This document shows positions 4,191-57,510 of a DNA stretch of 64,000 nt, piece after piece. A model generated the notes under the pieces. It searched no databases. It was not told where the DNA came from and saw only the letters and a list, made by a program, of their open reading frames with translations. The stretch is taken from positions 76,322,001 to 76,386,000 of the forward strand of contig OX597819.1 in the NCBI GenBank assembly GCA_951406725.2, in the 5' to 3' direction. The translations under genes and the position numbers were made by a program. This DNA is from Octopus vulgaris. Lineage: Eukaryota. Position 1 is the first letter of the stretch. Each line of letters opens with the position of its first letter.

Positions 4191-4652
4191 CTTGTTGATT
4201 TTGAAATTTCAATGACTAGTTTTTTCTTCTCGCTAGACACCTGGTAGCAAAAACATTTTCTAAATTTTCTAAATTTTTTTGCTACCCTGGAATTAATTAA
4301 TAATGATATAATGACTTCTGGCTAATTTTGAAAGAAAATCGGCATTTTTCGTACCTACTGCCGAAAAAACCGCGCTCGCGCGGTGGATTTTGAAATTTTA
4401 TAACATGTAAACACGAGGTATGTTCTGTATCACCTCGTCTTTATATGTTAATCTTGGCTTTCCTGCTGATGAGAGCTTCACCTAGCAATTTATTTTATTT
4501 GTGAAGATAGCTTGAAACCATGGTACAGGAAATAGATGGTAAATGTTTTTAGTTTTTATATTCCCTTTGGAAATTACCCCTAATAGAGGTTTAGAGTTTA
4601 ACTACTCCTTCTAGCGGGTCAACTATCCTGTTATGGCCATCTCTTATATGTT
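4191..4652 (+). mobile_element. Solo ~460-bp diverged monomer of the HHR-containing ~500-bp repeat family
   Basis: Collinear similarity to the array unit (ttgttgat, ctggtRgcaaaa..ttttgcYaccc, ttctggYtaatt, ctgccga, tttgaaa, HHR, ggtaaatgttttt, cctRttatggcc); flanked by microsatellites. Confidence 0.75.
4459..4532 (+). ncRNA. Type I hammerhead ribozyme
   Basis: tttcctg CTGATGA gagct..agctt GAAA ccatgg TA caggaaa: 7-bp stem I, 5-bp stem II, palindromic stem III, GUA site (cleavage after 4525). Confidence 0.9.
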
Positions 4653-4741
4653 TAAATGTACACTGTATTTACACACACACACATATATATATATACATAT
4701 GTATATATATATATATACATATATGCATGTATGAATGTATG

Positions 4742-13146: not shown

Positions 13147-13147
<1 letters not shown>

Positions 13148-13678
13148 CTACAAAATTAGAGAATGGAGAAACATACTTAAATCAGTAAAACATCAACTAT
13201 CCGATGATACTCAATCCATACTTTAATACACCATTACATATGAGTAAAGGCAATATATAAAATGAAATGAGATATACAGTAATAGTAAAAGTAAAAAGAT
13301 AAAGAGATATAAGTAAAATTTCAAATATAATATGCAAATAAACCAAAACTGACAGCTGTTTCGGCAGTGAGGACAGTCATACCTCATTTAACCTATAAGC
13401 CATAAAGGCAGGTCTGCCTTTATGGCTTATAGGTTAAATGAGGTATGACTGTCCTCACTGCCGAAACAGCTGTCAGTTTTGGTTTATTTGCATATTATAT
13501 TTGAAATTTTACTTATATCTCTTTATCTTTTTACTTTTACTATTACTGTATATCTCATTTCATTTTATATATTGCCTTTACTCATATGTAATGGTGTATT
13601 AAAGTATGGATTGAGTATCATCGGATAGTTGATGTTTTACTGATTTAAGTATGTTTCTCCATTCTCTAATTTTGTAGT
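13147..13678. repeat. Perfect 532-bp palindrome (265-bp arms, 2-nt GT spacer at 13412-13413)
   Basis: Arms read as exact reverse complements; each holds a hammerhead half-core GAAACAGCTGTC (13463-13474 on +); right arm continues uniquely to ~13850, then (TA)n. Confidence 0.9.
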
Positions 13679-13873
13679 ATTAATTTACGGTAATATTATT
13701 ACCTTTACCCATTTAATACAATAGATGAACTGATTGCTTGACAATTTTTAACATCTATGTATTATTTTTGTTGGGTACCTATCTAGCAGTATATTGGATA
13801 TATATTATCCCATGGTGGGTTGAATTTTCAACCCCTATCTCATTTTAACCTATATATATATATATATATTTTT

Positions 13874-14278
13874 ATAATTAATCAATATAGGGTGGCAAAA
13901 AATTTTGTAGAATTCTTTTGCCACCAGCGGCCTAGTAGGAAAAAATTAAAATAGTCAAAGACCATTTTTAAGTTCAACATCAACAATAAAGGAACGGCCA
14001 TAATAGGCCATTCACCCACTAGAAATAACAGCCAAAGCTTCAACCGCAAATAAAAGTTAATTCAGTAAACCAGGAGAAAATTAAAAAAAACATTTACCCT
14101 GTAATTTCTTATACGATATACCGTTTCATCTGCTGATTAATGGTAAACTAACCTGATTAAATTAAATCAAGCCAATCTTCCACAGGCCCTCAGATTCTTC
14201 AGTAAGAAATAGCCCAAGACGGAACAGATATTTTCACGAGGCATTTCCGACGTTGCCAAGTTAATATCTGACCTAAAA
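13874..14278 (-). mobile_element. Inverted partial (405-bp) copy of the array unit, head-to-head with the array
   Basis: Near-exact reverse complement of the unit from ttttaggtcaga to gattaattat; abuts (TA)n on its outer side. Confidence 0.95.
14104..14210 (-). ncRNA. Type I hammerhead ribozyme (inverted copy)
   Basis: Reverse complement of the array HHR. Confidence 0.88.
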
Positions 14279-14582
14279 AGGTGAATGGCCTATTATGGCC
14301 GTTCCTTTATTGTTGATGTTGAACTTAAAAATGGTCTTTGACTATTTTAATTTTTTCCTACTAGGCCGCTGGTGGCAAAAGAATTCTACAAAATTTTTTT
14401 TTTTGCCACCCTATATTGATTAATTATGAATTTTCTGGTTAATTCCGTAATGGAATCGACGGCTTATATTTATTTGCTGCCGATAAATTTGGCGCGAGTG
14501 CGACGATTTGAAAATTTTAGGTCAGATATTAACTTGGCAACGTCGGAAATGCCTCGTGAAAATATCTGTTCCGTCTTGGGCT

Positions 14583-14689
14583 ATTTCTTACTGAAGAATC
14601 TGAGGGCCTGTGGAAGATTGGCTTGATTTAATTTAATCAGGTTAGTTTACCATTAATCAGCAGATGAAACGGTATATCGTATAAGAAAT
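14583..14689 (+). ncRNA. Type I hammerhead ribozyme, unit 1
   Basis: atttctta CTGAAGA atctg [56-nt structured loop] cagat GAAA cggtatatcg TA taagaaat; 8-bp stem I; cleavage predicted after A14681. Confidence 0.92.
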
Positions 14690-15078
14690 TACAGGGTAAA
14701 TGTTTTTTAAATTTTCTCCTGGTTTACTGAATTAACTTTTATTTGCGGTTGAAGCTTTGGCTGTTATTTCTAGTGGGTGAATGGCCTATTATGGCCGTTC
14801 CTTTATTGTTGATGTTGAACTTAAAAATGGTCTTTGACTATTTTAATTTTTTCCTACTAGGCCGCTGGTGGCAAAAGAATTCTACAAAATTTTTTTTTTT
14901 GCCACCCTATATTGATTAATTATGAATTTTCTGGTTAATTCCGTAATGGAATCGACGGCTTATATTTATTTGCTGCCGATAAATTTGGCGCGAGTGCGAC
15001 GATTTGAAAATTTTAGGTCAGATATTAACTTGGCAACGTCGGAAATGCCTCGTGAAAATATCTGTTCCGTCTTGGGCT

Positions 15079-15185
15079 ATTTCTTACTGAAGAATCTGAG
15101 GGCCTGTGGAAGATTGGCTTGATTTAATTTAATCAGGTTAGTTTACCATTAATCAGCAGATGAAACGGTATATCGTATAAGAAAT
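15079..15185 (+). ncRNA. Type I hammerhead ribozyme, unit 2
   Basis: Same sequence as the unit 1 HHR. Confidence 0.9.
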
Positions 15186-15572
15186 TACAGGGTAAATGTT
15201 TTTTAAATTTTCTCCTGGTTTACTGAATTAACTTTTATTTGCGGTTGAAGCTTTGGCTGTTATTTCTAGTGGGTGAATGGCCTATTATGGCCGTTCCTTT
15301 ATTGTTGATGTTGAACTTAAAAATGGTCTTTGACTATTTTAATTTTTTCCTACTAGGCCGCTGGTGGCAAAAGAATTCTACAAAATTTTTTTTTGCCACC
15401 CTATATTGATTAATTATGAATTTTCTGGTTAATTCCGTAATGGAATCGACGGCTTATATTTATTTGCTGCCGATAAATTTGGCGCGAGTGCGACGATTTG
15501 AAAATTTTAGGTCAGATATTAACTTGGCAACGTCGGAAATGCCTCGTGAAAATATCTGTTCCGTCTTGGGCT

Positions 15573-15679
15573 ATTTCTTACTGAAGAATCTGAGGGCCTG
15601 TGGAAGATTGGCTTGATTTAATTTAATCAGGTTAGTTTACCATTAATCAGCAGATGAAACGGTATATCGTATAAGAAAT
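15573..15679 (+). ncRNA. Type I hammerhead ribozyme, unit 3
   Basis: Same sequence as the unit 1 HHR. Confidence 0.9.
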
Positions 15680-16070
15680 TACAGGGTAAATGTTTTTTAA
15701 ATTTTCTCCTGGTTTACTGAATTAACTTTTATTTGCGGTTGAAGCTTTGGCTGTTATTTCTAGTGGGTGAATGGCCTATTATGGCCGTTCCTTTATTGTT
15801 GATGTTGAACTTAAAAATGGTCTTTGACTATTTTAATTTTTTCCTACTAGGCCGCTGGTGGCAAAAGAATTCTACAAAATTTTTTTTTTTTTGCCACCCT
15901 ATATTGATTAATTATGAATTTTCTGGTTAATTCCGTAATGGAATCGACGGCTTATATTTATTTGCTGCCGATAAATTTGGCGCGAGTGCGACGATTTGAA
16001 AATTTTAGGTCAGATATTAACTTGGCAACGTCAGAAATGCCTCGTGAAAATATCTGTTCCGTCTTGGGCT

Positions 16071-16177
16071 ATTTCTTACTGAAGAATCTGAGGGCCTGTG
16101 GAAGATTGGCTTGATTTAATTTAATCAGGTTAGTTTACCATTAATCAGCAGATGAAACGGTATATCGTATAAGAAAT
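16071..16177 (+). ncRNA. Type I hammerhead ribozyme, unit 4
   Basis: Same sequence as the unit 1 HHR. Confidence 0.9.
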
Positions 16178-16569
16178 TACAGGGTAAATGTTTTTTAAAT
16201 TTTCTCCTGGTTTACTGAATTAACTTTTATTTGCGGTTGAAGCTTTGGCTGTTATTTCTAGTGGGTGAATGGCCTATTATGGCCGTTCCTTTATTGTTGA
16301 TGTTGAACTTAAAAATGGTCTTTGACTATTTTAATTTTTTCCTACTAGGCCGCTGGTGGCAAAAGAATTCTACAAAATTTTTTTTTTTTTTGCCACCCTA
16401 TATTGATTAATTATGAATTTTCTGGTTAATTCCGTAATGGAATCGACGGCTTATATTTATTTGCTGCCGTTAAATTTGGCGCGAGTGCGACGATTTGAAA
16501 ATTTTAGGTCAGATATTAACTTGGCAACGTCGGAAATGCCTCGTGAAAATATCTGTTCCGTCTTGGGCT

Positions 16570-16676
16570 ATTTCTTACTGAAGAATCTGAGGGCCTGTGG
16601 AAGATTGGCTTGATTTAATTTAATCAGGTTAGTTTACCATTAATCAGCAGATGAAACGGTATATCGTATAAGAAAT
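16570..16676 (+). ncRNA. Type I hammerhead ribozyme, unit 5
   Basis: Same sequence as the unit 1 HHR. Confidence 0.9.
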
Positions 16677-17075
16677 TACAGGGTAAATGTTTTTTAAATT
16701 CTCTCCTGGTTTACTGAATTAACTTTTATTTGCGGTTGAAGCTTTGGCTGTTATTTCTAGTGGGTGAATGGCCTATTATGGCCGTTCCTTTATTGTTGAT
16801 GTTGAACTTAAAAATGGTCTTTGACTATTTTAATTTTTTCCTACTAGGCCGCTGGTGGCAAAAGAATTCTACAAATTTTTTTTTTTTTTTTTTTTTTGCC
16901 ACCCTATATTGATTAATTATGAATTTTCTGGTTAATTCCGTAATGGAATCGACGGCTTATATTTATTTGCTGCCGATAAATTTGGCGCGAGTGCGACGAT
17001 TTGAAAGTTTTAGGTCAGATATTAACTTGGCAACGTCGGAAATGCCTCGTGAAAATATCTGTTCCGTCTTGGGCT

Positions 17076-17182
17076 ATTTCTTACTGAAGAATCTGAGGGC
17101 CTGTGGAAGATTGGCTTGATTTAATTTAATCAGGTTAGTTTACCATTAATCAGCAGATGAAACGGTATATCGTATAAGAAAT
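17076..17182 (+). ncRNA. Type I hammerhead ribozyme, unit 6
   Basis: Same sequence as the unit 1 HHR. Confidence 0.9.
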
Positions 17183-17573
17183 TACAGGGTAAATGTTTTT
17201 TAAATTTTCTCCTGGTTTACTGAATTAACGTTTATTTGCGGTTGAAGCTTTGGCTGTTATTTCTAGTGGGTGAATGGCCTATTATGGCCGTTCCTTTATT
17301 GTTGATGTTGAACTTAAAAATGGTCTTTGACTATTTTAATTTTTTCCTACTAGGCCGCTGGTGGCAAAAGAATTCTACAAATTTTTTTTTTTTTTGCCAC
17401 CCTATATTGATTAATTATGAATTTTCTGGTTAATTCCGTAATGGAATCGACGGCTTATATTTATTTGCTGCCGATAAATTTGGCGCGAGTGCGACGATTT
17501 GAAAATTTTAGGTCAGATATTAACTTGGCAACGTCGGAAATGCCTCGTGAAAATATCTGTTCCGTCTTGGGCT

Positions 17574-17680
17574 ATTTCTTACTGAAGAATCTGAGGGCCT
17601 GTGGAAGATTGGCTTGATTTAATTTAATCAGGTTAGTTTACCATTAATCAGCAGATGAAACGGTATATCGTATAAGAAAT
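17574..17680 (+). ncRNA. Type I hammerhead ribozyme, unit 7
   Basis: Same sequence as the unit 1 HHR. Confidence 0.9.
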
Positions 17681-18079
17681 TACAGGGTAAATGTTTTTAA
17701 ATTTTCTCCTGGTTTACTGAATTAACTTTTATTTGCGGTTGAAGCTTTGGCTGTTATTTCTAGTGGGTGAATGGCCTATTATGGCCGTTCCTTTATTGTT
17801 GATGTTGAACTTAAAAATGGTCTTTGACTATTTTAATTTTTTCCTACTAGGCCGCTTGTGGCAAAAGAATTCTACAAAATTTTTTTTTTTTTTTTTTTTT
17901 TGCCACCCTATATTGATTAATTATGAATTTTCTGGTTAATTCCGTAATGGAATCGACGGCTTATATTTATTTGCTGCCGTTAAATTTGGCGCGAGTGCGA
18001 CGATTTGAAAATTTTAGGTCAGATATTAACTTGGCAACGTCGGAAATGCCTCGTGAAAATATCTGTTCCGTCTTGGGCT

Positions 18080-18186
18080 ATTTCTTACTGAAGAATCTGA
18101 GGGCCTGTGGAAGATTGGCTTGATTTAATTTAATCAGGTTAGTTTACCATTAATCAGCAGATGAAACGGTATATCGTATAAGAAAT
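18080..18186 (+). ncRNA. Type I hammerhead ribozyme, unit 8
   Basis: Same sequence as the unit 1 HHR. Confidence 0.9.
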
Positions 18187-18306
18187 TACAGGGTAAATGT
18201 TTTTTAAATTTTCTCCTGGTTTACTGAATTAACTTTTATTTGCGGTTGAAGCTTTGGCTGTTATTTCTAGTGGGTGAATGGCCTATTATGGCCGTTCCTT
18301 TATTGT

Positions 18307-18310
<4 letters not shown>

Positions 18311-18375
<65 letters not shown>

Positions 18376-23228: not shown

Positions 23229-24350
23229 ACATGTTTATACATACATACATACATACATACATGAATACATACACATACACATATGCGCGCACATAGACAC
23301 ACATACACACAACACACACACATACACACACACATATACATATGATATTCGCAGTCGTATTTCAAAATGCCAACTATAACACTCAATTGATTTTAAACAT
23401 ATTTAAAGTATAGAGCGTTAGCATATTAGTAGAAATAGATTATCAAAATCAATATTAGACAATGACTAACATATTTTAAGTATTTTTATAACAGTCTTGT
23501 TTTCATCCAACTTGAGTCGATAAAACAATGTGCCTTCAAGTACCTTAGACTCTATGTAACTGACAATAAGAAATGCTTTCAGCACGCAAGGGATGCATTT
23601 CGACTGCTTGTAACAAGTGACACAACATGTGGCATCCAAATATTTCCAAATCAACAAAGCCTGCCTTCTTCTGGATGTATGTAGAGTGTTCTTATCTAAG
23701 ACCTCAAAATGTTGAAAAGCAAATTTGGCCTCAATGGAATAAGAACTCAGATTGTAAAGCTAGTAGAAATGCGAGAATTCCATAGGGGGTGCTAAGGACT
23801 CTGCCAGCGCACCACCTTAGTATTAAAAAAAATAATAAAAATGAAGATGGTGCTAATTTGATTAACATAACATCCTTCCCGAAAGATTCGCAATAGTGTA
23901 TTTATATTAAACACCAATAGCAATTCAATATTTCTCGTAACTGTTGGTTCATATGAGAGTTTACTAAGCAAGGCCCCTCATAAAATACGTTCTTGACGTA
24001 TTTTAAAATGTAATGATGAAAGAATAATTAGAAAAATAGTTTATATTTAGTTTATTTTTATCAGTATAGGAAAATAGAAATGTTTGAAGATAAATTAACT
24101 CACTTACTGAATATTTTCTACATTTCAACTTTTTTCAGCTATTACGAGAGACAATTCATGTCTTATTGTGAACTTGTCAGCAAACTGTAGTAATGATATG
24201 CATAACTCAATGTAGTAGTGATACGTATAACTCGGCAAATGTAAAATCTTTTACGCTTATTTGTATAGGTAATACTCTGTACAAATAAAATATTTGGTTA
24301 TTCACATACATATTTTTTCGGATCTTTTCCCTTTGAACGGCAGATCGAGA

Positions 24351-25109
24351 AATTAATTTTTTGTATCTAAACACTTTCAAACTTAGGACACTGGTAGAAC
24401 GTGTCATTTAAAACATTTATTTACTCTTAGCGTTTCTGAGAAAAGTTTATATTTACGAAGTTATTTCGTGTTAAAGTTGTCTTATTTTGGTAATATCAAC
24501 CAATCAATGATGTGTATTCAGCAGAATAAACTTACTGCCGTTGTATCGGCGATGTATATTTTGTTTGTCACTGTTATTTATGACATCGTTCGTGCGTTTG
24601 TACTGGTTTTAGCTTTAAGCTTTGAGGGTTAGGGTTGGTGTTTTAAGGTTAGCGTTTGGGGTCTTAGGGTTAGAGTTACTGAAAAAATGAAAAATGAAGA
24701 AATTGGAGGGGGCGGGGGCAAAAAGTCTTTCCGAAAATACCTGAAAAACAGGAAAAAAACTAAAAGCAGTAGAAATGCACGAACGATTATGGTGGTGCCA
24801 TGAAGTAAACATGCTTCAGATACACTCGTTTATTCATACAAACGTAACTGTGATGAAATATGTCATAAATAACAGTGACAAACGAAATATGCACCGCCGA
24901 TAGTTGTTGTTGATAAACAACAGCTGTAAGTTTATTCAGTTGAATACACGTCATTGATTCGTTGTAATTACCGAAATACGACAACTTTAACACAAAATAA
25001 CTTCGTAAATATAAACTTTTCTCAAAAACGCTAAGAGTAAAACATGTTTTATATGACACATTCTACCAGTATATGAAGTTTGAAAGTTTTTAGTTACAAA
25101 AAATTCATT
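24351..25109. mobile_element. Non-autonomous foldback/MITE-like element with ~235-250-bp imperfect TIRs
   Basis: 24351-24586 is an imperfect reverse complement of 24859-25109; core contains degenerate TTAGGG-like repeats. Confidence 0.75.
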
Positions 25110-28069
25110 TTTTTCTTCTCACTGCAAGACAAATTAATTCTAGTAAGATTTCTCAGTATTAAATGTGCTAACAATAACAAATGTTTTATTTTATTTTGTT
25201 TTTCATGTGGTGAGATTTTCTGAATCAGTATACAATAGAATTTTTCTATCCCAATAAATACACTGTGTCCATACAATACTTCATCAGCATATACGTGGAG
25301 GTTATGCTTCATAGATAAGGCCAGAATAAAATTTTATCGAGATACTTTCACTTTTGTACATAAACAATACAAAATATTTATAAATGAGCAACATGGTTTT
25401 GTTTTTGTGTTTTCCGCAGCTTAATTTTAATTTATAGCTTTTTACAATTCCATGAATAAAACATCTTAGCAGTGACTTATCTTTTATTTTCCACGTGCAT
25501 TATTCCAATTTCTCTGAATTATTTAAATGCTAAATATAAGTTTGATTATTTTCGGCAATGCTATTATAACTTCATATTAAATGCCATAGAGTTTTATAGA
25601 ATTTAGCTATATATTTATTATTACCAAAAGGAATATAAGAAGATTCCAAGAAACTTAAAAATTCTTACTGATAAAATGAATCAATATTTTATTCATCACA
25701 TGCAACATGGATACATAATGCAGTTATTTATGTTTCTTCAATAAGCGTTACCTGTTATTAGCGTCTATTCATTTCGATAAAATCGTAGAATTATATTCGT
25801 GATGTTTATTTATTTATTGTAATGATATTAAATATATACGTGAAATAATTCAAATTAGATCTAAAGTGAATGGCAGCATTAGTTCCCCAAATAATGACAA
25901 TGGACTACAAACTTTCAGCCCAGTAAGAATCTAATCATTACAAGGGATTTGATTGCTCTTTCTATTAGGTTTGTAATAATTCTATCAAGCATGTGTTGTC
26001 TTGTTGAGTCGCGAAATACTCCGGTGTTTAGATGCTATTTACATCATCAAGTTCGAGTCGCATCATGCTAAGCCGTGCTTGTCTTTTCTTTAACATAGTT
26101 GCAAATTATGTACATGTTGCGCAGAGCAATGAATCAATATTAAAGCAACGTATCTATATTAAAGTAATGTATCTATATTAGAGCCCAATAATCCATCAGC
26201 TACTCTAAAAAATGTAAGCATAAAAAGGATAAACATAAAAGCAGTTATATTTTATCAGTTATATATATATATATATTTTTCCTGGATATTTCATATCAAC
26301 CTCTGCAATGAAATAACATTTAATGATGTTGTTAGGGTGTAATTTAAGGGAAATTGAAATTATATTTCTCAATCACATTGAAAACCCGTTGACTTTCGCT
26401 GAATAAACGATGAGAAGGTGGGTAGCAACTGTGCTGATTTTGAACATAGGACTGCTCTTGATCACAAGACTGTGTATTAAAAATGACAAAATGTCATACA
26501 AAGTTCATTTTGTGCCATTGGGATTGTTTACCTTAAATAGCCCCAAGTTATTCCATATTATTCGATGCGGTTAGGCAGAACTCAAATTATACTAGAGTGC
26601 TTGGACGGTACCTATCTGAATCTATTATCCCTGTCGAGTCCATTATTGTATATTTGCTTTGTTTTAAATCATGGTATTGGCATATTTAGTGTATTTCTTT
26701 TATTTGCGTTCAATATTATGCAAATTACTACTAAGTCGAAATCTTGAAAAGTATTTTTCTATACGCAAGCACTCCTATCTTCTAATTAACCAGATTTATG
26801 CTAAATATATGCTCAATTAAGAAGCTCTAATGATGCTAAGGCCAACCCATTGCAGTTAATATCTCTGCTACTAAAGACCAGATTTTCCCTTGAGCATGAC
26901 AAATTACTTATATTTATTTTTAATTAATTATTAATTTCTGGAAATTATCTCTTATTTTATGTCACTATTGATTGTTGCTATGAACTTGATTTTTGTCTCC
27001 AACTAAAAGGTAAACTAACATATTTTTGAGTATTTTTTATGTGTACATTATTCAGTACATCGGCACTTGATTTATCTTAATCCATACCATTGGCTTATTA
27101 GAGTTATTTCCCTTGGCTAAATTTGTATAATAATCCTGATAAGCTTAGCTTAGCAATTTCGATTTTTGCATGTTATTTTTATCTCGTTTGGCTTACATTC
27201 AAACAGAAATATAGATTTAATGGGACATCTATAAGATTGCTGGCAGTTAGCTAATGCTATCGTATATATCTATAAGACGGCATGAACAAGAAAGAGAGAA
27301 AGGGAGAGAGTACGAGGAAGGAGGGAAAGAGAGGGACAAAGTAGGAGAGAGAAAGAATCAGAAGAGAAAAAAAGAACGAGCAAAGGAATGGAAAAGAGAA
27401 AAATGGAAATAAGCGCACAGCTCTTAGTCATGAAAATGCATAGAGATTCGACTGAACTCCATTCGCAAATATATATATTGTTCAATATTTTATCAAACAT
27501 TTACTGCTGAATAGCAAAGCTAGCTGTCATAAGCTTTTAACTCAAATCTATTAAGACTAGTAATTTTATATGGCAAAACGTGAACTACAGCGTCTTAGTC
27601 GAGATGATATGAATCTATTATGCCATTGTAATACTGCGAAACAAATGTCGCAGACAGGAGAAATCATGCCAGTAGGTCAAGAGCTGGAACTTGGTGGTAG
27701 GAACACTGTAAGCTAATCAATAGGGCGGCCCTTTTATGGATGTGGTTCAAGTACGCCATCTTGATTCTGAACTGAGCTTTGTATTACTGGAATGTGTAGT
27801 AACTTCTGGCTTTGAAAAGAATGTCCAGTTATTCAGATGCGGTTTTAGCATTGTTAATGATGTGGTTTAGCCAGTAGAGATCCTCAGAGATAGAGGCACC
27901 TAAAAATTGGAGCAATTGTGAGGGATGGAACTAAATACTTAGTATTCATGATTAGGAGGTGGGGTGAGATAATGTTTGGTTGATACGTGTGGCATATGGA
28001 TTTTCTTGTTGTTGACAGAGTTGTAAGATAAGCATACTCAAATTGCAACATATATCAGTTTTAAATGGT

Positions 28070-34219: not shown

Positions 34220-34856
34220 AAAATTTAGAGGATTGACCACTATAAGTGTACAGCCTGTATGCTAGATATAGACGTCAAAATCGCCATTTTTCACGAGGAA
34301 TGTGTTCTCAAGAAAAAATTCAGCAAAAACCCAGTGTGAAAATAACAAGACAAATGAAAATATACGAAATAAAAAACGATTACCTATGTACTAATTAGTT
34401 TCGCTTGTAAATATTTACGTATATGGGTACGTAAACATCAGCAAGATCATCAGCATAGTCTGTCGTTTACGAAACATAATTTCCAGAACTAGATACAGGG
34501 CGCTCAACCGAAATCCAGCATGTATAAAGTTCCACAAATTATATTTAAGTGTATCTTTCAAATGCCTTCAACTTGGCGCGCTGGGATAGGAAATTACTCT
34601 GCAGTTAATAAACTACAGCAGTCAGTTTACCGGCTAGAGAACATTTTTTAAATTTAAAATGAATTAAGGGAAGAAATTGATATTAATCATTTAAAACCAG
34701 TGGCCTAGCATATTTAAAAAATCCGAAGATTATAAATTTTTTACATACAAAATTTAGATGATTGACCACAAAAAGTGGACAGCCTGTATGCTAGATATAG
34801 ACGTCAAAATCGCCATTTCCACGAAAAATGTGTTCTCAAGAAAAAATTCAGCAAAA
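34220..34856 (-). mobile_element. ~1.2 copies of a 529-bp HHR-containing tandem unit
   Basis: ~108-bp direct repeats at 34220-34328 and 34749-34856 with an HHR between them; 3' end abuts a long TA/TATG tract. Confidence 0.75.
34384..34458 (-). ncRNA. Type I hammerhead ribozyme
   Basis: Minus strand: ctatg CTGATGA tcttg..tgtttacgta/tacgtaaata..caagc GAAA ctaattag TA catag; first stem II pair mismatched. Confidence 0.8.
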
Positions 34857-36989: not shown

Positions 36990-37755
36990 TTGACATGAGC
37001 AATGATGCATCTTTCCAAATGCATATTGCTAATCTGGTGATAAAATGCAGACGGCTAGCTGGATGGATTCTCCGAACTTTCAGAACTCAGAGAGAAGGAG
37101 ACACTGATGGTCCTATGGAAAACATTCGTCCTCAGCCGCTTGGACTACTGCTCCCAACTTTGGTCACCACACAATATAAAACTAACAGCAGAACTCGAAG
37201 CAATTCAGAGAAGCTACACAAAGAAAATCGTCTCAATGCAAAATATCAGCTACTGGGAAAGACTGAAGGTATTAAACCTCTTCTCCCTAGAGCGGAGGCG
37301 GGAGAGATATGCGGTGATATACATCTGGAAAATCCTGGAGGGTCTTGTCCCAAACGTTGGCATTCAAAGTTACTCCAACCGCAGAACGGGGCGCCACTGC
37401 ATGGTGCTAAGGATTCCAACATCACCATCAAAATACAGGTCCAGATACTGCAACAGCTTGGGTTTCAGAGGACCACAGCTCTTTAACATCCTCCCTAAAT
37501 GCCTGAGAGACTTACATGGTGTGGATGTGGGTTTCTTTAAAACTAAACTGGATCTCTTCTTGTTGGGAGTCCCAGATGAACCTACCTCACGACAGGAGAC
37601 GCGGATGCGGGCAGCAGCATCGAACTCCCTTGCTGATCAAGTGCCACGTATCAGAGGTGGATTCACAAATTAGTGTAGCTCATTCAGCGGTGGTGCCCCA
37701 GCATGGCCGCGGCCTTCGGGCTAAAACATTTTTAAGGATTTAAGGATTTAAGGAT
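36990..37755 (+). mobile_element. 5'-truncated CR1/L2-group LINE (RT C-terminus, 3' UTR, (AAGGATTT)n tail) in (TA)n
   Basis: ORF 37107-37673 LWKTFVLSRLDYCSQLWSP..SYWERLKVLNLFSLERRRERY; frameshift near 37090; TA tracts on both sides. Confidence 0.88.
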
Positions 37756-49107: not shown

Positions 49108-49178
49108 ATATATATATATATATATGGCAGCCCAGAAAAATAGGACGAATACTGTGGTTGATTAGTTCCAAGTGGTAT

Positions 49179-49402
49179 GTGAGACATAAAACCAGTGTCA
49201 ATTACAACCTTCGAACAAGAGAGGTCATTATATTTCCTTTGCTGTTTCAACAACCACAGTCTAGTTTCGTGGTATTTTCCCCTTTATACACATTAATAAG
49301 GGGGGAATAGCCCGAAACTAGACTGTGGTTTTTGAACCAGCAAGGGAAAGCTGATGACCTCGCCTGTTCGAAGGATCTAATGAACACAGGTTTCTGTCTC
49401 AC
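49179..49402. repeat. Imperfect ~224-bp foldback
   Basis: gtgagaca..ccttcgaaca..gaggtcat..aaccacagtctagtttcg pairs with cgaaactagactgtggtt..atgacctc..tgttcgaagg..tgtctcac. Confidence 0.8.
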
Positions 49403-49567
49403 CTAGCTAAACAACAGCAGCAAACACGGTCTCTCAAAGATGTTTCAATCCATCCATACACACACATATACATACATATATATGTATATATATATAGAAA
49501 TTCGGGGTGAGTACTTGATAATTATAAGCACCTGTGTATACCGTTTGGTGGTGTAGGTGGTGGAGTA

Positions 49568-51167
49568 AATTGATCAAAATAAAAATAAAAACATGAGGCG
49601 AAGGATTCAGCGGTACATATGTTTCGGGCCTTTATTAGACAGATTTATAACAAAGCATAATGTATGTCTGTGGCCTTCTTCAGCCGCGCACAACAGCTTC
49701 CACAAGGACATGTGTTACATCAAAAATTCTTGGTTGGGGATGCAAATCCTCTCGTTCACGTACGACATAATGCGGCAGCAGCATAGAATTGAAGCGTCCA
49801 TCTCTTTCTTCTCTCAATGTAGAATGAGGAAACTTGGATGTTGAGGTAATGTAAATAAATAAATACGTATATAGAGGTGAAGATGGAGGGGCGAGAGTTC
49901 GGGACGAGGGATAAAAAATATATATAAAAGATGTACGTATAGAATAATATAAAAATGTAGAGGATAAAGATATAAAGAGTTGTAATGAGATGTAAAGGGG
50001 GTATAAAGAAATATAAAGAAATATAAATAAATGTAAAGGCATAAGGTTGTAAAGTAAAAATAGAAATGGAAATAATAGTAAAAGAAGTAAAAGAACCTGA
50101 TAAAAACATGATAAAAGTGTAAAAGAATGTAAAGATAAGGGATGTATAGAGGTCGCGGACCAAGCATGGTGGTCAGGAGATTGATAAAACTTAGTTGTAG
50201 AACTGTCAGTAAATTAACAGTTTCGTCGTAAATCAGAGCTGATGAGAATTTAATCTGGTTCCTTGAATTAAATGGACTTCCAGTACATACATATCATCAT
50301 GGATACATACACCCACATACACGTGTACATACACGTCTCCAAGCCTATAAGCATACACACGCACTCGCGTGTAAACACGTACATAAACACACACGCACCC
50401 ACACGCACGCGCGCACACACACATACATACAACAGAATATCCGCATATATAGACGGACATTACGCGCGTACACGCTCACATGTATATACGCGCGCCCCTC
50501 ACTACATACACACACGTATATGCCCACGCCCCTAGGTCTAGGTATAAGATATTAAAGGATGTGTATAAGAACGTATGTAAAGAATCCCGTACTCATGTTA
50601 ATACGCGCACGCACACACGGCTGTGTGTCCGTATGTGCGTGCACATATACACTCATACACACACACAGAGACACACGCGCACATGGGTATAGCCATAAGA
50701 TATCGAAGTATGCATGTACATATACGCGCGTGCATATGTATGCATGCGCATACACACGTACGCGGACGCTCGCATACTCAAAAGGCGGATCCATAGGTAA
50801 GTAAATAAACATATATAGAGGTGTAAAGCGATAAATTAGGGGTAAGAATGAGGGTAAGGGTAAAGATTAGAAATAAAAAAATACAGTATAAACTAAGAAA
50901 TACAATGTAATAGTTAGAAATGAAATATAAGAATTATAAGGGTTATAAGAGTTAAGGTAAGGGATGAAAATGAAAATGAGAGTAAATGGAAGTAGAATAA
51001 AAGTAAAAATAAAATTAAAAATAAAAATAAATGGAAGTAGGATAAAAGTAAAAATAAAAATAAAAATAAAAATAAAAATAAAATAAAATAAAATAAAATA
51101 AAAAAAAAATAAGGTAAAAATATAATTTTGTAAAGTTTAACATGAGATGGAGGTGGCACACATATAT
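49568..51167 (-). repeat. 3' pseudo-LTR arm (1600 bp), sense to the ORF
   Basis: Reverse complement of 53768-55364 with only a few substitutions and a 3-nt poly-A length difference. Confidence 0.95.
49610..49687 (-). ncRNA. Type I hammerhead ribozyme in the 3' pLTR
   Basis: gcgg CTGAAGA aggcc..ggccc GAAA catatg TA ccgc. Confidence 0.85.
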
Positions 51168-51330
51168 ATATATATGTATATGTACACATACGTACACGTA
51201 TGTGCACATACACACGCACACACACACACACACACACACATACACACGCACATATAGGAAAGCGGGATGTGCTGGAGCCGACAGGTTGCACCGGGTGGGA
51301 GGAAATAGCATGGGGGAGTTGGTATAAGAC

Positions 51331-53793
51331 CTAAGCATTATAGTATTTGAAAGTATTAATAAGTTTATGTATACAGGATGGTTTGAACTCTGACCTTTTG
51401 TTAATAAGATTGTGTTTGTCTTTGAATTTCAAGATGTTCAGGAGTTCTACACAGCATAGTTGGCATCCTGCTCTATTATTTAAATAAGGTGCAGCTGATC
51501 CGATGATGGACCATCTGAGTTTGAAGCCTATGCATTTGTCTTTTAATTCCCAAATTCTTTTAGAGAGGGAGGTGCTGTTAGCCTTATGTCTATGTCTCAG
51601 CGAGGACCGGTGGTTGTAGTATCTGGATTTCCAGGAGGTTGAGCAACCAATATAGGTGAGTGTGTTAAACTGAGTACTCACCTCACATGAGTATATTACG
51701 TTTTTCGCCCTGCATGCGCCCTGCAGCGGGCACTCTGATGCACATCTGCAGTTGCATTGCATTGCATTATTCGGTCGTGTGCTGCTAATCCCAGGCGGAG
51801 GTGTTGCAATACGAGTGGGGGCGTTGGTATCCTCCTGGTTGTTGATGGGTGTAGTATTTCCTCTGTTGTGTTGGCGGGTGTTATTACTAACTGCTTGGGT
51901 AGTATGGCTGCCAGTCTGGTTATATTGCCTACTGTCTAGATGAGGGGGGTTCTGTTGGTCGCTATGGTTTGCTCTTGATCTAGCTGTTCTAATATTAATA
52001 TAGTTATGTTTAGCTAAGAGGCAGCTCATGTTGGGCAGGGTAGAGTAGGAAATCCTAATAGTTTTGTTGGAGAAGATACTTCTATATTTGTGGGTGGGTG
52101 GGAAGTTGTTGGAAATTATAGAGAATATTCTCTTACATAACTTACCCCTAACTGCTAAGTTGAAAGGTATGTTGAACCATATATATTTGCGTAATCTACT
52201 ATTATCCCTTCTATTTCTCCTAATAGGATCTATATTGCTCTCGTCGGGAGGGTTACTATTGTGTGCTGTTCTATTAGTTCGCCTATTTCCTATACGTTGT
52301 TTGGAGTTTGAATTAGACTTATCGGTAGTGTGAGTTGAGTGCTGAGTTCGATTATAATTGGGAGTCTTATGGTCGACGGACGCTCCCGGTTGGTCTACAT
52401 ATGATATTCTCTGGTTATACCCGGCACTATAGAGAGCTTGGTTGTAGTGTTGTGCATGATTATTGAAAATTTCTCTATTAGAGGATAGTTTTGTCAGTCT
52501 GTCTGAGATGGCTTGGACTGTGGTGCTAATTATACAGGGTGGATGGTTGGAAGAGGTATGGATGTATTTGGTAGTTTCTTCTGATTTCCTATACGGGTAG
52601 TGAAGGTGCTTATTCAAATCTAACGTAACATCTAAGAAGTTAACTATTTTAGTATTGGTCATAAATTCTAGTTTAAGATTGAAGGATTTGAAAAAAAGCC
52701 TGATCTTTTTCCTAATTCTTTCTAGTTTACTCCTATTGTTGGTGGGGTATATGAAGAGAGCGTCGTCTCTGTATAGACCCCCCTGAAGATCCGGTACCTC
52801 GGAGAAAAGCTTCTTGAGCAGGTAGGCCCCGACCAAGTCAGTCACCTGAGCTGAATCGCTCGAGCCCATAGCCACATCGAAATTGTCGGGGGTATCGGAT
52901 CTGGTCCAGAGTCTACCGTCGAATTCTATTATGGTTTTTCTAGCTAATAGAATTATGTCAATTTTTTCTCTGTCTATGAGTGAAAGGTTGCGGGCAAAAA
53001 TAAGGGATTTGTTAAGTAAGATGGGGGATATACTGGCGTAGTAGCTAGCTATGTCGAATTGGATGAATGAGTAGTCGGGCCTATTGGTGATAGTGTTAAA
53101 CCATTCTAGCACATCGCTGGTATTAATCCATAGTTGGAGTGGGATGTGGGGTTTGATGTGTGGGATCACCTTGTCCAGGATGGTCTTGCTAAGTCTGCCG
53201 ATATCCGATTTAGTCGGACAGATTAATCGTACTCCTACACTATCTGGGAAGTCTTTCTTATGGTCTTTAATAGTAATTTTGGGTACTTGCGGTTTAATAG
53301 GTTCTGTTCTGTCCAGGAGGTCTAATTTGCTCATAACTTCCTTGATTTTGTAATTAATTTCCTTAAGGTTATCCGTAGAAGTAGTTTTATACTTTTTGCT
53401 AAGTTCCCTCATGATGAGCGATTTGTAGGTTTGGTAGTCTAGCCTATACCAGTTCCCAGTCTTGTCGGCGGGTATGATAAGACTATCATCGTTCCTGAGT
53501 GAATGCAGGAAATCTTTAAGGCTCCTTAAGTGGGTGTTGGAAATGGTCTTATGTTTACTAATGTTGATGTTGGTAATGAGGTCGATTAAGTGTTTTTCAA
53601 AATTTTCCAGTGCGTAGTTAGAGGGTGGGTTTCTTCTGCTTTTAAATATCTTCCTGTGTGCTATTTCTTCTTGGTTAGAGTTGGGGTTGCTTTTCTCCGG
53701 GTTATCGAAATGGTAGGCCGCCCACCTAATTCTTCTAATAAAGTCTGTGGTCCGGTGGATGAGAGTCATATATGTGTGCCACCTCCATCTCAT
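51331..53793 (-). CDS. Penelope-like reverse transcriptase with C-terminal GIY-YIG endonuclease (820 aa)
   Basis: IPADKTGNWY; RT motifs QFDIASYYASI, AMGS, LYRDD, VNFLDVTL; thumb YIHTSSNHPP; CNCRCASECPLQGAC; VIY..YIG; RYYNH; CQLC..E; NKRSE. Confidence 0.95.
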   Translation of the reverse strand: MRWRWHTYMTLIHRTTDFIRRIRWAAYHFDNPEKSNPNSNQEEIAHRKIFKSRRNPPSNYALENFEKHLIDLITNINISKHKTISNTHLRSLKDFLHSLRNDDSLIIPADKTGNWYRLDYQTYKSLIMRELSKKYKTTSTDNLKEINYKIKEVMSKLDLLDRTEPIKPQVPKITIKDHKKDFPDSVGVRLICPTKSDIGRLSKTILDKVIPHIKPHIPLQLWINTSDVLEWFNTITNRPDYSFIQFDIASYYASISPILLNKSLIFARNLSLIDREKIDIILLARKTIIEFDGRLWTRSDTPDNFDVAMGSSDSAQVTDLVGAYLLKKLFSEVPDLQGGLYRDDALFIYPTNNRSKLERIRKKIRLFFKSFNLKLEFMTNTKIVNFLDVTLDLNKHLHYPYRKSEETTKYIHTSSNHPPCIISTTVQAISDRLTKLSSNREIFNNHAQHYNQALYSAGYNQRISYVDQPGASVDHKTPNYNRTQHSTHTTDKSNSNSKQRIGNRRTNRTAHNSNPPDESNIDPIRRNRRDNSRLRKYIWFNIPFNLAVRGKLCKRIFSIISNNFPPTHKYRSIFSNKTIRISYSTLPNMSCLLAKHNYINIRTARSRANHSDQQNPPHLDSRQYNQTGSHTTQAVSNNTRQHNRGNTTPINNQEDTNAPTRIATPPPGISSTRPNNAMQCNCRCASECPLQGACRAKNVIYSCEVSTQFNTLTYIGCSTSWKSRYYNHRSSLRHRHKANSTSLSKRIWELKDKCIGFKLRWSIIGSAAPYLNNRAGCQLCCVELLNILKFKDKHNLINKRSEFKPSCIHKLINTFKYYNA

Positions 53794-55361
53794 GTTAAAC
53801 TTTACAAAATTATATTTTTACCTTATTTTTTTATTTTATTTTATTTTATTTTATTTTTATTTTTATTTTTATTTTTATTTTTACTTTTATCCTACTTCCA
53901 TTTATTTTTATTTTTAATTTTATTTTTACTTTTATTCTACTTCCATTTACTCTCATTTTCATTTTCATCCCTTACCTTAACTCTTATAACCCTTATAATT
54001 CTTATATTTCATTTCTAACTATTACATTGTATTTCTTAGTTTATACTGTATTTTTTTATTTCTAATCTTTACCCTTACCCTCATTCTTACCCCTAATTTA
54101 TCGCTTTACACCTCTATATATGTTTATTTACTTACCTATGGATCCGCCTTTTGAGTATGCGAGCGTCCGCGTACGTGTGTATGCGCATGCATACATATGC
54201 ACGCGCGTATATGTACATGCATACTTCGATATCTTATGGCTATACCCATGTGCGTGTGTGTCTCTGTGTGTGTGTATGAGTGTATATGTGCACGCACATA
54301 CGGACACACAGCCGTGTGTGCGTGCGCGTATTAACATGAGTACGGGATTCTTTACATACGTTCTTATACACATCCTTTAATATCTTATACCTAGACCTAG
54401 GGGCGTGGGCATATACGTGTGTGTATGTAGTGAGGGGCGCGCGTATATACATGTGAGCGTGTACGCGCGTAATGTCCGTCTATATATGCGGATATTCTGT
54501 TGTATGTATGTGTGTGTGCGCGCGTGCGTGTGGGTGCGTGTGTGTTTATGTACGTGTTTACACGCGAGTGCGTATGTATGCTTATAGGCTTGGAGACGTG
54601 TATGTATACGTGTATGTGGGTGTATGTATCCATGATGATATGTATGTACTGGAAGTCCATTTAATTCAAGGAACCAGATTAAATTCTCATCAGCTCTGAT
54701 TTACGACGAAACTGTTAATTTACTGACAGTTCTACAACTAAGTTTTATCAATCTCCTGACCACCATGCTTGGTCCGCGACCTCTATACATCCCTTATCTT
54801 TACATTCTTTTACACTTTTATCATGTTTTTATCAGGTTCTTTTACTTCTTTTACTATTATTTCCATTTCTATTTTTACTTTACAACCTTATGCCTTTACA
54901 TTTATTTATATTTCTTTATATTTCTTTATACCCCCTTTACATCTCATTACAACTCTTTATATCTTTATCCTCTACATTTTTATATTATTCTATACGTACA
55001 TTTTTTATATATATTTTTTATCCCTCGTCCCGAACTCTCGCCCCTCCATCTTCACCTCTATATACGTATTTATTTATTTACATTACCTCAACATCCAAGT
55101 TTCCTCATTCTACATTGAGAGAAGAAAGAGATGGACGCTTCAATTCTATGCTGCTGCCGCATTATGTCGTACGTGAACGAGAGGATTTGCATCCCCAACC
55201 AAGAATTTTTGATGTAACACATGTCCTTGTGGAAGCTGTTGTGCGCGGCTGAAGAAGGCCACAGACATACATTATGCTTTGTTATAAATCTGTCTAATAA
55301 AGGCCCGAAACATATGTACCGCTGAATCCTTCGCCTCATGTTTTTATTTTTATTTTGATCA

Positions 55362-55364
<3 letters not shown>
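53768..55364 (+). repeat. 5' inverted pseudo-LTR arm (1597 bp)
   Basis: Reverse complement of 49568-51167; joins the ORF at an ATATAT microhomology. Confidence 0.95.
55245..55322 (+). ncRNA. Type I hammerhead ribozyme in the inverted pLTR
   Basis: gcgg CTGAAGA(55249-55255) aggcc..ggccc GAAA(55307-55310) catatg TA ccgc; cleavage predicted after A55318. Confidence 0.85.
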
Positions 55365-55929: not shown

Positions 55930-57004
55930 ACATGTACATATATATGATTTTGCAATTATTCATTTGCATCCATGGACATCATTATGTGCCGGAAACCGAG
56001 AAGCAGTGTGCTCTGATGATGTTTGTGAGCACATAAATATGTAGGTATATGTATATGCATTTTTGTATGCACCTGTATGTATTTATATATATACCTGAAC
56101 ATATGTACATACAATTGTTATAATGGTCGTTATGCAGGCAGACACGGAGATAAACTGCCTTGCATTTGCATAAACGCAAAACATGGGAACATGCACATAG
56201 GAAAGTGATAGTTCTAATCGCTAATCTACAACTCGGTTGCTTGATCCGCAACTATCAATTATTCACACCGATGTCATTACATTCGTAGAGAAATGCTTTA
56301 TATCTTTTTAATGCTGACTTAATCTAGGCGCTTTAGCAAGGAAATTTTTATGATTGCTTTTTAAGCCTTAGCGCCGACAGTCAGTCACGCCTTATCGCCA
56401 TTTATATGTACATCAATACTTCAACAAATGTATTAGCACGGTCTCCTTCGTGGACAGAGCAAATAGAATTTGGTTATTTTCTTGAGAATCCAAAACGTGA
56501 TAACAAATTATTTGTTTGGGGGCATGATTTTTCATTGCAGAGATTTGACCTAGTTTTGTCCTTGCCATTGTTATTGTTACTATTGTTGTTTAACCACAGG
56601 TAAGTCTGGAACAATCACATATTTTTCATAAACGTTTCAACAGTAATCATGCAGTCTTTTATTTTCACTTGTTGTTACTGTTGTTTTCGTCGACTTCAAT
56701 GTCACTGGTGTCATCGTTGTTTACTTTATTTTTGTGGATGTTTATGACTTTTATTTACTGCAATGTAGACTTGGCCATTGAATCTTAAATATATTCCCTG
56801 CAAGATACAGCCTCATCGTGGCTCTTTTTACTTTTATATTTTATTTTCATTAAAATTTGTTGTTGCTGATTTTAATTAGTTATTATAATGTTATAGAGTA
56901 TCACTATTATTAAAAGATTTCAGCCATGACTATTTCATTATCTTTGAAAAAATACTGCTTATAAGTCTACATTTTCCAAAGTAACCCCTCCTTTTTTTAA
57001 GCAC

Positions 57005-57510
57005 GTATGGTGAGAATCGCAAACTGTTAAATATATGAAGTCAAGGATTGGTCAGGCAAAGGCCGTTTTTGCGAAATGAATCGTGTATTCACAAGTAATC
57101 GTCTGAAAATAAACGCGACGAAAAAAAATAGAAAAAAACTATGGGTATGTATAGCGCCCGTCTTCATATATGGCTGTAGTTCTTGAAATATAAAGGAAAA
57201 TTATAAAAGTTTAGCAAGATATGGTTCCTCACACAAATATGAGAACAACTTATGCAGACAGGGTACCGAATGTCGAAGTCCTTAGACTTCTTAACAATAT
57301 AAAGAGGCAACAGACTAAGTTTAGTGGACGTTAGAAGGGCAAACTATGCATTGAATGCTCGCTGACAACTATAATACTGGAAAGGAGCGGTAGCTGAAGA
57401 ACTCATGAAGAGAAGAGGATCAATACCTTTACTAGCTGGCTACAGGAAAAGCAACCGACTAGCTGCAGGACAGGAAGGGGTAATGGTCCATGACTCCCGA
57501 CACCTACAGA
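57005..57510 (+). pseudogene. RTE-clade LINE relic
   Basis: KSRIGQAKAVF..MNRVFTSNRLKIN..IAPVFIYGCSS..DRVPNVEVLRL..KRQQTKFSG, with frameshifts. Confidence 0.7.

What the first reader, a model, noticed from the sequence alone, without database searches (positions are those of the whole stretch)
13874..18310. Eight-copy ~500-nt hammerhead-ribozyme tandem array (retrozyme-like, predicted circRNA source) with an inverted ninth HHR
Seen: every 494-506-bp unit has a complete type I HHR (8-bp stem I atttctta/taagaaat, CUGAAGA, stem II atctg/cagat with a structured 56-nt insert, GAAA, stem III, GUA site). Units are nearly identical apart from a poly-T tract, the array has no credible protein, and both ends sit in (TA)n. 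Established: HHR-bearing tandem repeats (newt satellite 2, schistosome SMalpha, metazoan non-LTR retrozymes) self-cleave to monomers that can circularise and are thought to be mobilised by Penelope-like RTs. Inference: this is a young, relatively large retrozyme family, and the head-to-tail array could be the direct product of rolling-circle reverse transcription of a ~500-nt circular RNA.
Basis: partly seen in the sequence, partly recalled or inferred. Interest (0 to 1): 0.92.

Follow-up and report, generated by a model that had tools for sequence, protein, structure and literature searches.

The report
Twin-armed hammerhead retrozyme, Penelope-type insertions
This array is one of hundreds of scattered, nearly identical copies of a protein-free repeat carrying a predicted self-cutting RNA motif; the copies mostly sit as two back-to-back arms ending at two fixed points, which suggests that a Penelope-type jumping-gene enzyme likely copies one RNA, probably a circle, from two start sites.

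Summary
In detail: eight tandem hammerhead (HHR) units plus a 405-nt inverted arm with a ninth, between (TA)n runs. It is one insertion of a young dispersed family (805 exact HHR-core matches in the genome), an animal non-LTR retrozyme.

Across 119 loci, 88 of 94 two-arm insertions have one arm ending about 132 nt and the other about 242 nt past the HHR cut; none has two alike. Penelope-like elements (PLEs) of this genome leave the same scar. Arm 5' ends pile up at the HHR cut (hazard ratio 4-10 in three sets), an indirect sign of cleavage in vivo. Common family alleles are never mixed within a locus (0 of 42), and private variants are fixed across both arms, so each insertion likely stems from one monomer sequence. 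Subfamilies vary at free HHR positions and by compensatory stem changes.

Not shown: the RNA, the circle, in vitro cleavage, and the partner PLE (Hydra-type favoured, a Neptune-like family possible; no sequence homology to either). The scan noted the same pattern earlier on other DNA of this genome. The kind is known; the value is a testable footprint of how retrozymes are copied.

The parts
13851..13869 (.). Left (TA)n target run, shared with the end of a neighbouring Hydra-type insertion; 4 extra T at 13870-13873
13874..14278 (-). Inverted arm, 405 nt: unit position 330, through the HHR cut, to the fixed far end B (+242) at 13874
14104..14210 (-). Ninth HHR in the inverted arm; predicted cut after A14112
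14279..14279 (.). Head-to-head junction of the two arms, one extra base
14280..18310 (+). Forward arm, 4031 nt (8.1 units): unit position 95 to the fixed near end A (+132) at 18310
14583..14689 (+). HHR 1: stem I 14583-14590/14682-14689, core 14591-14597, stem II base 14598-14602/14661-14665 with 58-nt structured insert, GAA 14666-14668, stem III 14669-14672/14677-14680, predicted cut after A14681
14682..15177 (+). First cut-to-cut monomer, 496 nt, 35% GC: the predicted linear or circular RNA; the reference unit for all positions in this report
15079..18186 (+). HHRs 2-8, predicted cuts after 15177, 15671, 16169, 16668, 17174, 17672, 18178
18309..18345 (.). Right (TA)n target run, followed by (GA)n and (GATA)n to 18503
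13147..13850 (.). Separate neighbour: 5'-truncated two-arm insertion of autonomous Hydra-type PLE family C (265-bp palindrome plus a tail of about 172 nt)
49497..55364 (-). Separate element: Hydra-type PLE family A, 828-aa open frame at 51331-53817, inverted arm 53768-55364, HHR cuts at 49614 (-) and 55318 (+); an example of the candidate mobiliser class

Best explanation
This is one insertion of a young, dispersed, protein-free repeat family with a type I hammerhead motif in every unit (an animal non-LTR retrozyme), likely pasted into TA microsatellites by the enzyme of a Penelope-like element, which likely primes DNA synthesis from both target strands at two fixed internal sites of one unit-length, probably circular, RNA. 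Steps: (1) tandem copies are transcribed (inferred) and the HHR cuts them to ~495-nt monomers (inferred from the pile-up of 5' ends at the cut and from covariation); (2) some monomers are ligated to circles (inferred from other retrozymes); (3) a PLE RT-endonuclease, likely acting as an asymmetric pair, nicks both strands of (TA)n and starts one cDNA at about +132 and the other at about +242 (fixed ends shown, priming inferred); (4) on a cut linear RNA both cDNAs run off at the cut and give ~350-bp palindromes, on a circle they run round and give arrays such as the 8.1 units here (both products shown, templates inferred); (5) the two cDNAs are joined head to head. The partner is unidentified; I put Hydra-type at about 60% and the young Neptune-like family at about 30%.
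For: Dispersal and youth: 39 scored loci of 919 candidates, full-length matches 97-100% identical; 805 exact HHR-core, 181 exact A-junction and 836 exact B-junction matches, reversed-pattern controls 0. End rule: A+B in 30 of 32, 32 of 33 and 26 of 29 two-arm loci, A/A or B/B in 0 of 94. Autonomous Hydra-type loci show the same: 7 of 7 simple two-arm loci with both ends in view have one short and one long end, family B at +35-46 and about +149-164. Frangieh 2024 (PMC11167929) shows in vitro that a PLE protein cuts and extends both strands and starts at two internal RNA sites. 5' ends within -2..+20 of the cut: 12 of 71, 24 of 73 and 11 of 68 arms, hazard ratios 4.1, 9.9, 3.8, p 1e-4, 2e-14, 4e-4. 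Both arms stop at the cut in 18 of 58 junction-selected loci, Fisher p 4e-6. No locus mixes the common alleles at positions 153 or 345 (0 of 42 each; 28 and 29 with both arms); 51 variants are fixed within a locus against 4 partial; five private variants are fixed across both arms. 193 of 204 passes over the cut are exact over 35 nt. HHR variation falls on N7, H17 and loop III, with compensatory pairs in stems I and II; a 67%-identical sister family keeps the fold and both end sites with different stems.
Against: No RNA, circle or cleavage was observed. A homogeneous uncut multimer would also give uniform arrays and exact junctions. One source locus active in one cell could supply two identical RNAs, so 'one molecule' is not proven; the both-arms-at-cut correlation is absent in set 1 (1 of 30, p 0.68). 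The 5' pile-up could partly be RT stalling at the folded HHR or microhomology in the A/T tract at +16..+33. The unit shows no convincing DNA similarity to the pLTRs of any PLE family tested (Hydra A and B by blastn; Hydra C by tail alignment only; Neptune-like). 24 of 119 loci have a single arm (one of them a parsing miss) and 6 have one non-standard end. A palindromic insertion of the 67% sister family has both arms ending near B (L049). In Frangieh 2024 HHR cleavage was not needed and unprocessed RNA was the main template; in Li 2026 only 1 of 9 predicted Xenopus retrozymes cleaved in vitro.
Confidence: 0.68

Rival explanations
1. Same element and enzyme, but no circle: long arms are copied from uncut read-through transcripts of an already homogeneous source array, and the HHR only trims 5' ends.
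For: Exact junctions and uniform arrays fit a multimer too. Frangieh 2024 found unprocessed RNA the dominant substrate. 10 of 80 single-copy substitutions recur in another locus.
Against: Private variants fixed in all units of both arms (L034 5/5, L065 4/4, L068 3/3, L153 3/3; L051 2/2) need a one-unit bottleneck followed by re-amplification. 70 of 80 single-copy variants are private, and only 4 variants are partly spread.
Confidence: 0.2
2. The second arm is made by copy-back (self-priming on the first cDNA or an antisense template, as proposed by Arkhipova 2013), and the two ends are set by endonuclease resolution rather than by two priming sites.
For: In 9 of 29 loci away from the cut the two 5' ends lie within 10 nt (1.7 expected), as a fold-back centre would give. 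PMC3846280 proposes self-priming for head-to-head PLE palindromes.
Against: In several loci neither arm contains the other, and in L158 and L179 they are disjoint, which needs extra deletions. In vitro data show both strands extended from two RNA start sites (PMC11167929).
Confidence: 0.07
3. Monomers insert and then expand locally as minisatellites by unequal crossing over (the scenario discussed by Li 2026).
For: Four partly spread variants exist, one of them in this array (2 of 8 units), so some local turnover may occur.
Against: Arms begin and end at non-integer unit positions fixed by the A/B rule, both inverted arms can be multimeric, and most variants are not homogenised.
Confidence: 0.04
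4. An amplified pLTR of an autonomous PLE, or an assembly artefact.
For: HHR architecture and ends resemble the local PLE pLTRs. No raw reads of the source individual were laid.
Against: Two-arm insertions are closed by (TA)n on both sides with no ORF inside. The Hydra A protein hits 0 of 79 loci in sets 1-2 and 1 of 40 in set 3, about 3 kb from the arm. Arrays of up to 9.3 units occur on many contigs with unit-specific variants. Contigs of other runs show unit-to-(TA)n junctions.
Confidence: 0.02

Closest known systems
Animal non-LTR retrozymes (Cervera and de la Pena 2020, PMC7229834; Li, Clavereau and Pollet 2026, 10.64898/2026.07.22.740005)
   Same: Tandem non-coding units, each with a type I HHR, GC below 50%, strongly self-paired, co-existing with PLEs; rolling-circle reverse transcription and a PLE partner were proposed there.
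   Different: A 58-nt structured insert in stem II and a 4-bp stem III; 492-506 nt (above the 150-450 of the 2020 paper, inside the 51-972 of the 2026 preprint); two divergent arms with two fixed ends in (TA)n, not described in the parts I read; circles were shown there, not here.
Hydra-clade Penelope-like elements (Craig et al. 2021, PMC8557442)
   Same: (TA)n targets, HHR, inverted 5'-truncated arm, a tail at one end only; local families have HHRs with 51-61 nt (families A, B) or about 100 nt (family C) between core and GAAA; the family B tail of about 115 nt is close to the 110 nt here.
   Different: No RT-endonuclease ORF; no detectable sequence homology; the tail is far longer than the 30-40 bp described.
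Poseidon element PAc of Anolis (Frangieh et al. 2024, PMC11167929)
   Same: Two internal RT start sites downstream of the HHR cut, both strands of AT-rich DNA cut and extended, predicted dimer.
   Different: Autonomous; sites 30-40 nt apart; no sign of HHR-cut ends in RNA-seq and cleavage dispensable in vitro, whereas here genomic 5' ends cluster at the cut.
Newt satellite 2 / axolotl retrozymes (as described in PMC7229834)
   Same: HHR-bearing tandem repeats transcribed and cut to monomers.
   Different: 330-350 nt with a 1-2 bp helix III that needs dimers; here a 4-bp stem III is predicted to allow monomer folding.

Membership tests
Animal non-LTR retrozyme | Tandem units each with a complete type I HHR (two or more consecutive) | tested here: met
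   8 consecutive units plus 1 inverted; covariation
Animal non-LTR retrozyme | Non-coding, no RT, low GC | tested here: met
   Longest ATG ORF 66 aa, 35% GC; no ORF inside insertions
Animal non-LTR retrozyme | Dispersed multicopy family, monomers to multimers | tested here: met
Animal non-LTR retrozyme | Unit size within the known range | tested here: met
   492-506 nt; inside 51-972 bp (Li 2026), above 150-450 bp (Cervera 2020)
Animal non-LTR retrozyme | Highly self-paired monomer | tested here: met
   z -4.81, 0 of 100 shuffles as stable
Animal non-LTR retrozyme | HHR self-cleavage | tested here: inconclusive
   Indirect only: 5' ends cluster at the predicted cut; no assay
Animal non-LTR retrozyme | Accumulates as linear and circular RNA | not testable with these tools
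   Only assembled contigs were available; they cannot show ends or circles
Animal non-LTR retrozyme | Target-site duplications longer than 4 bp | tested here: inconclusive
   Both flanks are (TA)n, which hides any duplication
Animal non-LTR retrozyme | No PBS or PPT | not tested
   No search for tRNA complementarity was run
Autonomous PLE (Hydra or Neptune clade) | RT plus GIY-YIG ORF between pLTRs | tested here: not met
   tblastn used the Hydra A protein only, plus an ORF scan of sets 1-2
PLE-type insertion (works like) | Inverted 5'-truncated arm, tail at one end only, (TA)n target | tested here: met
   88 of 94 two-arm loci; same scar in local PLEs
PLE-derived (pLTR origin) | Sequence homology to a pLTR of an autonomous PLE | tested here: not met
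   None convincing to Hydra A/B, Hydra C tail or the Neptune-like family; other families were not sampled
Rfam hammerhead families | Score above the gathering threshold | tested here: not met
   0 matches in the window; E-value mode was not run

The most novel reading that the evidence does not exclude
The genome records the whole retrozyme cycle: one Penelope-type RT dimer loads on a single ~495-nt RNA, primes from both target strands at two sites 110 nt apart, and yields a short palindrome when the RNA is HHR-cut or rolling-circle arrays when it is closed. That would be a direct record of rolling-circle reverse transcription of an animal circular RNA and would give the PLE tail and inverted arm a single cause.
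Probability: 0.5. Interest if true: 0.8.

Novelty: new variant of a known kind. Interest (0 to 1): 0.6.

Why it matters
Which enzyme spreads animal retrozymes, and whether circles are the template, has been proposed but left open (PMC7229834, PMC7761336, Li 2026), and the role of the HHR in PLE biology is called unclear (PMC8557442). This family gives nucleotide-level predictions (start sites +132 and +242, run-off at the cut, one haplotype per insertion) in a genome with intact young PLE ORFs, so the question can be settled in vitro with the assay of Frangieh 2024. An RT that copies a small RNA circle into tandem DNA at TA repeats would also be a useful tool. Long-stem-II hammerheads that Rfam thresholds miss may be under-counted elsewhere.

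Tried and rejected
Rfam scan at gathering thresholds: nothing. Pfam on the 828-aa PLE frame: no relevant family; clades were assigned from motifs, not from a tree. Expression: no RNA holder listed, 14 holders only guessed to be RNA; in one such run a single 523-nt contig covers one whole unit, which a tandem array or a circle would both give, so I draw nothing from it. The locus-specific head-to-head junction was not bridged in contigs of 4 other runs; a hole proves nothing. Partner search by homology failed for four PLE families; one 62% match at E 0.007 in L110 lies beyond that element's end and was set aside. Shared short motifs before the ends were not significant against shuffles. My recalled figure of about 130 nt for the Anolis start site was wrong (111-118 nt into the ORF, cut at 26) and was dropped. 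I first took the window's PLE for a Naiad; its C-terminal endonuclease and DKT motif point to Hydra. The excess of B over A junction counts looked like a break of the end rule but traced to older subfamilies with variant A ends. Look-ups of earlier findings by sequence and nearby place gave nothing. Supplements of the papers were not read; the Hydra consensus and HHR files of PMC8557442 and the retrozyme tables of the 2026 preprint may bear on novelty and on the partner.
Full report
OBSERVATION. The array is real as described. TRF reports 8.1 copies of period 498 at 14280-18310 with 98% matches. Eight forward hammerhead (HHR) motifs have their cleavage base at 14681 to 18178, spaced 494-506 nt, and a ninth lies on the minus strand at 14112. 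All nine fit a type I descriptor: 8-bp stem I, CUGAAGA, 5-bp stem II base around a 58-nt structured insert, GAAA, 4-bp stem III, GUA site. The catalytic fold is 1.8 kcal/mol above the minimum; the 496-nt monomer folds with z -4.8. Rfam finds nothing at gathering thresholds. The longest ATG ORF is 66 aa. The ninth HHR belongs to a 405-nt inverted arm (13874-14278) joined head to head with the forward arm, and (TA)n closes both sides. Unit positions below count from the first base after the cut.

FAMILY. The window lies in a 2.8-Gb assembly of 227 contigs. A DNA search scored 39 loci of 919 candidates, full-length matches 97-100% identical. Exact patterns give 805 HHR cores, 181 near-end (A) junctions with (TA)n and 836 far-end (B) junctions, with reversed controls at 0. 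The B count includes older subfamilies about 84-99% identical that carry variant A ends. I examined three sets. Set 1: the 39 scored loci including the window, biased to long arrays. Set 2: the first 40 listed A junctions not in set 1. Set 3: 40 of the first 41 listed B junctions, one skipped as already in set 2.

TWO FIXED ENDS. In set 1, 30 of 32 two-arm loci have one arm ending at about +132 and the other at about +242; 2 have B plus another end; 7 loci have one arm. In set 2, 32 of 33 are A+B; the last (L155) was parsed as B plus other because its A arm has a deletion at the cut; 7 are single. In set 3, 26 of 29 are A+B, 3 are B plus other, 10 are single B and one (L215) was incompletely parsed. 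No A/A or B/B case occurs among 94. Ends fall on short shared AT letters with the (TA)n flank, as expected for target priming (inference). The forward arm here ends at A, the inverted arm at B. One counter-case lies outside the family: a palindromic insertion of a 67%-identical sister family with both arms ending near B (L049).

THE SAME SCAR IN LOCAL PLEs. [quoted passage not shown] This is a motif match, not a tree. Searches showed three Hydra-type families with intact frames. Their HHRs also have long stem II regions (51, 57-61 and about 100 nt). Their ends lie at +47/+117 (A), about +35-46/+149-164 (B) and about +203/+375 (C). Seven of seven simple two-arm loci with both ends in view have one short and one long end; L104 has three arms. 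A fourth, very young family (775 aa, DKG, copies mostly 99-100% identical; Neptune-like by its motifs, a label from my reading of PMC8557442) has a short HHR with a CCGAAGA core, targets (TA)n and ends at about +136-143 and +170-189. The unit shows no convincing DNA similarity to any of the four, so the partner is open. The long stem II and the 110-nt tail favour a Hydra-type enzyme; youth and the position of the near end leave the Neptune-like family possible.

NOT AN AMPLIFIED pLTR. Two-arm insertions end in (TA)n on both sides with only unit sequence inside. The Hydra A protein hit 0 of 79 loci in sets 1-2 and 1 of 40 in set 3, about 3 kb from the arm. The ten ORFs of 250 aa or more in sets 1-2 lie in flanks and look like LINE, integrase or low-complexity frames (labels from recall).

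SIGN OF CLEAVAGE. Arm 5' ends within -2..+20 of the predicted cut number 12 of 71, 24 of 73 and 11 of 68. Corrected for the bases each arm crosses, stop rates there are 4.1, 9.9 and 3.8 times background (p 1e-4, 2e-14, 4e-4). In the junction-selected sets both arms stop near the cut (window -2..+28) in 18 of 58 loci, Fisher p 4e-6, giving ~350-bp palindromes; set 1 does not show this (1 of 30). The simplest reading is run-off from a self-cleaved 5' end. Stalling at the folded ribozyme or microhomology in the nearby A/T tract may add to it. Across subfamilies, core changes fall on N7 (all four bases) and H17 (A, C, U), loop III varies, and stems I and II show compensatory pairs (the descriptor selects for intact motifs, and its counts include overlapping loci, so only the types are used). 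The 67% sister family keeps the fold and ends at +128-131 and +223-225 with different stems.

ONE MONOMER PER INSERTION. In sets 1-2, two common polymorphisms (positions 153 and 345) are never mixed within a locus: 0 of 42 each, with 28 and 29 loci covered in both arms (one locus has a single private third base at 153). Of substitutions at positions covered twice or more, 51 are fixed in the locus, 80 single and 4 partial; 70 of the 80 are private. Variants private to one locus and fixed over both arms occur in L034, L065, L068, L153 and L051. Jumping among a mixed RNA pool is therefore unlikely, and a one-unit bottleneck followed by repeated copying is the easiest source of fixed private variants. 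Of 204 passes across the cut, 193 are exact over 35 nt; 3 have a duplication, change or deletion at the cut itself, perhaps rare template jumps, and 8 have scattered point changes. This fits a ligated circle, but also an uncut multimer from a uniform source array.

MECHANISM. Shown in sequence: dispersed two-arm insertions, two fixed ends, (TA)n targets, 5' ends at the cut, one haplotype per locus. From the literature: a PLE protein cuts and extends both strands of AT-rich DNA, starts at two internal RNA sites that define the tail, and is predicted to be a dimer (PMC11167929, abstract and main text read); animal retrozymes self-cleave and accumulate as circles, and PLEs are proposed as their movers (PMC7229834, results and discussion read; PMC7761336, passages). 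Inferred: transcription, cleavage, circularisation, and paired priming on one RNA. Copy-back synthesis (PMC3846280, passages) is a lesser rival, since some arms are disjoint (L158, L179), though 9 of 29 loci away from the cut have matched 5' ends. Against my reading: HHR cleavage was dispensable for the Anolis element, and only 1 of 9 Xenopus retrozymes cleaved in vitro (10.64898/2026.07.22.740005, parts 1-3 of 5 read).

KNOWN AND NEW. The element meets the sequence-level definition of an animal non-LTR retrozyme; the RNA-level features are untested. It works like a PLE insertion but is not a PLE. A tail at one end and an inverted arm are known for PLEs (PMC8557442, PMC3846280); HHRs in pLTRs are known (PMC4209133, part 1 of 4 read). 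In six full-text searches and the parts read I found no description of retrozyme insertions with two fixed ends, of 5' ends clustered at the HHR cut, or of the one-haplotype test. Subscription papers and supplements were not covered. The scan's own notes report the same two-end pattern for several HHR repeat families on other DNA of this genome; I had reached this reading before that look-up, and those notes are not independent support. They call the host a cephalopod, which I did not test.

VERDICT. A new variant of a known kind. Interest 0.6: the class is known, but the insertion footprint turns a proposed mobilisation route into exact, testable predictions.

Noticed in passing
window 13147-13850: 5'-truncated two-arm insertion of an autonomous Hydra-type family (962-aa frame, 5.6-kb pLTR-ORF-pLTR in L213; 2405 candidates), with a 265-bp perfect palindrome and a tail of about 172 nt. 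It shares its (TA)n run with the array.
   Followed up: yes
window 49497-55364: Hydra-type PLE with an 828-aa open frame (5'-truncated against 842 aa in other copies), a 1.6-kb inverted arm and its own HHR; ends 47 and 117 nt past the cut.
   Followed up: yes
window about 4460-4660 (+): HHR with cut at 4525, followed by sequence that by eye resembles the unit's first 130 nt: probably an older relative of the same retrozyme group.
   Followed up: partly
window 34220-34856 (-): Partial tandem of about 530 nt with an HHR (cut at 34389): probably another retrozyme or PLE remnant.
   Followed up: partly
L049 1417-1899; L200-L212: Sister family of about 467 nt, about 67% identical, 2548 candidates, with fully changed HHR stems and the same two end sites; the L049 copy has both arms ending near the far site.
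   Followed up: partly
L255-L270: Very young Neptune-like PLE (775 aa, 4270-nt unit, over 100 near-identical copies) with a variant CCGAAGA hammerhead core and (TA)n targets; a lead for the partner of the 359-nt CCGAUGA retrozyme noted earlier in the scan.
   Followed up: partly
window 14682-18178: The T-tract is 9-22 nt in this array against mostly 7-9 in other loci; slippage or a sequencing effect, unexplained.
   Followed up: no
window 37059-37673 (+): 204-aa frame that looks like the 3' end of a LINE reverse transcriptase (label from recall; no Pfam hit).
   Followed up: partly
window 24350-25110, 49176-49405, 56751-57914: Further degraded inverted repeats that may be older two-arm insertions.
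   Followed up: no
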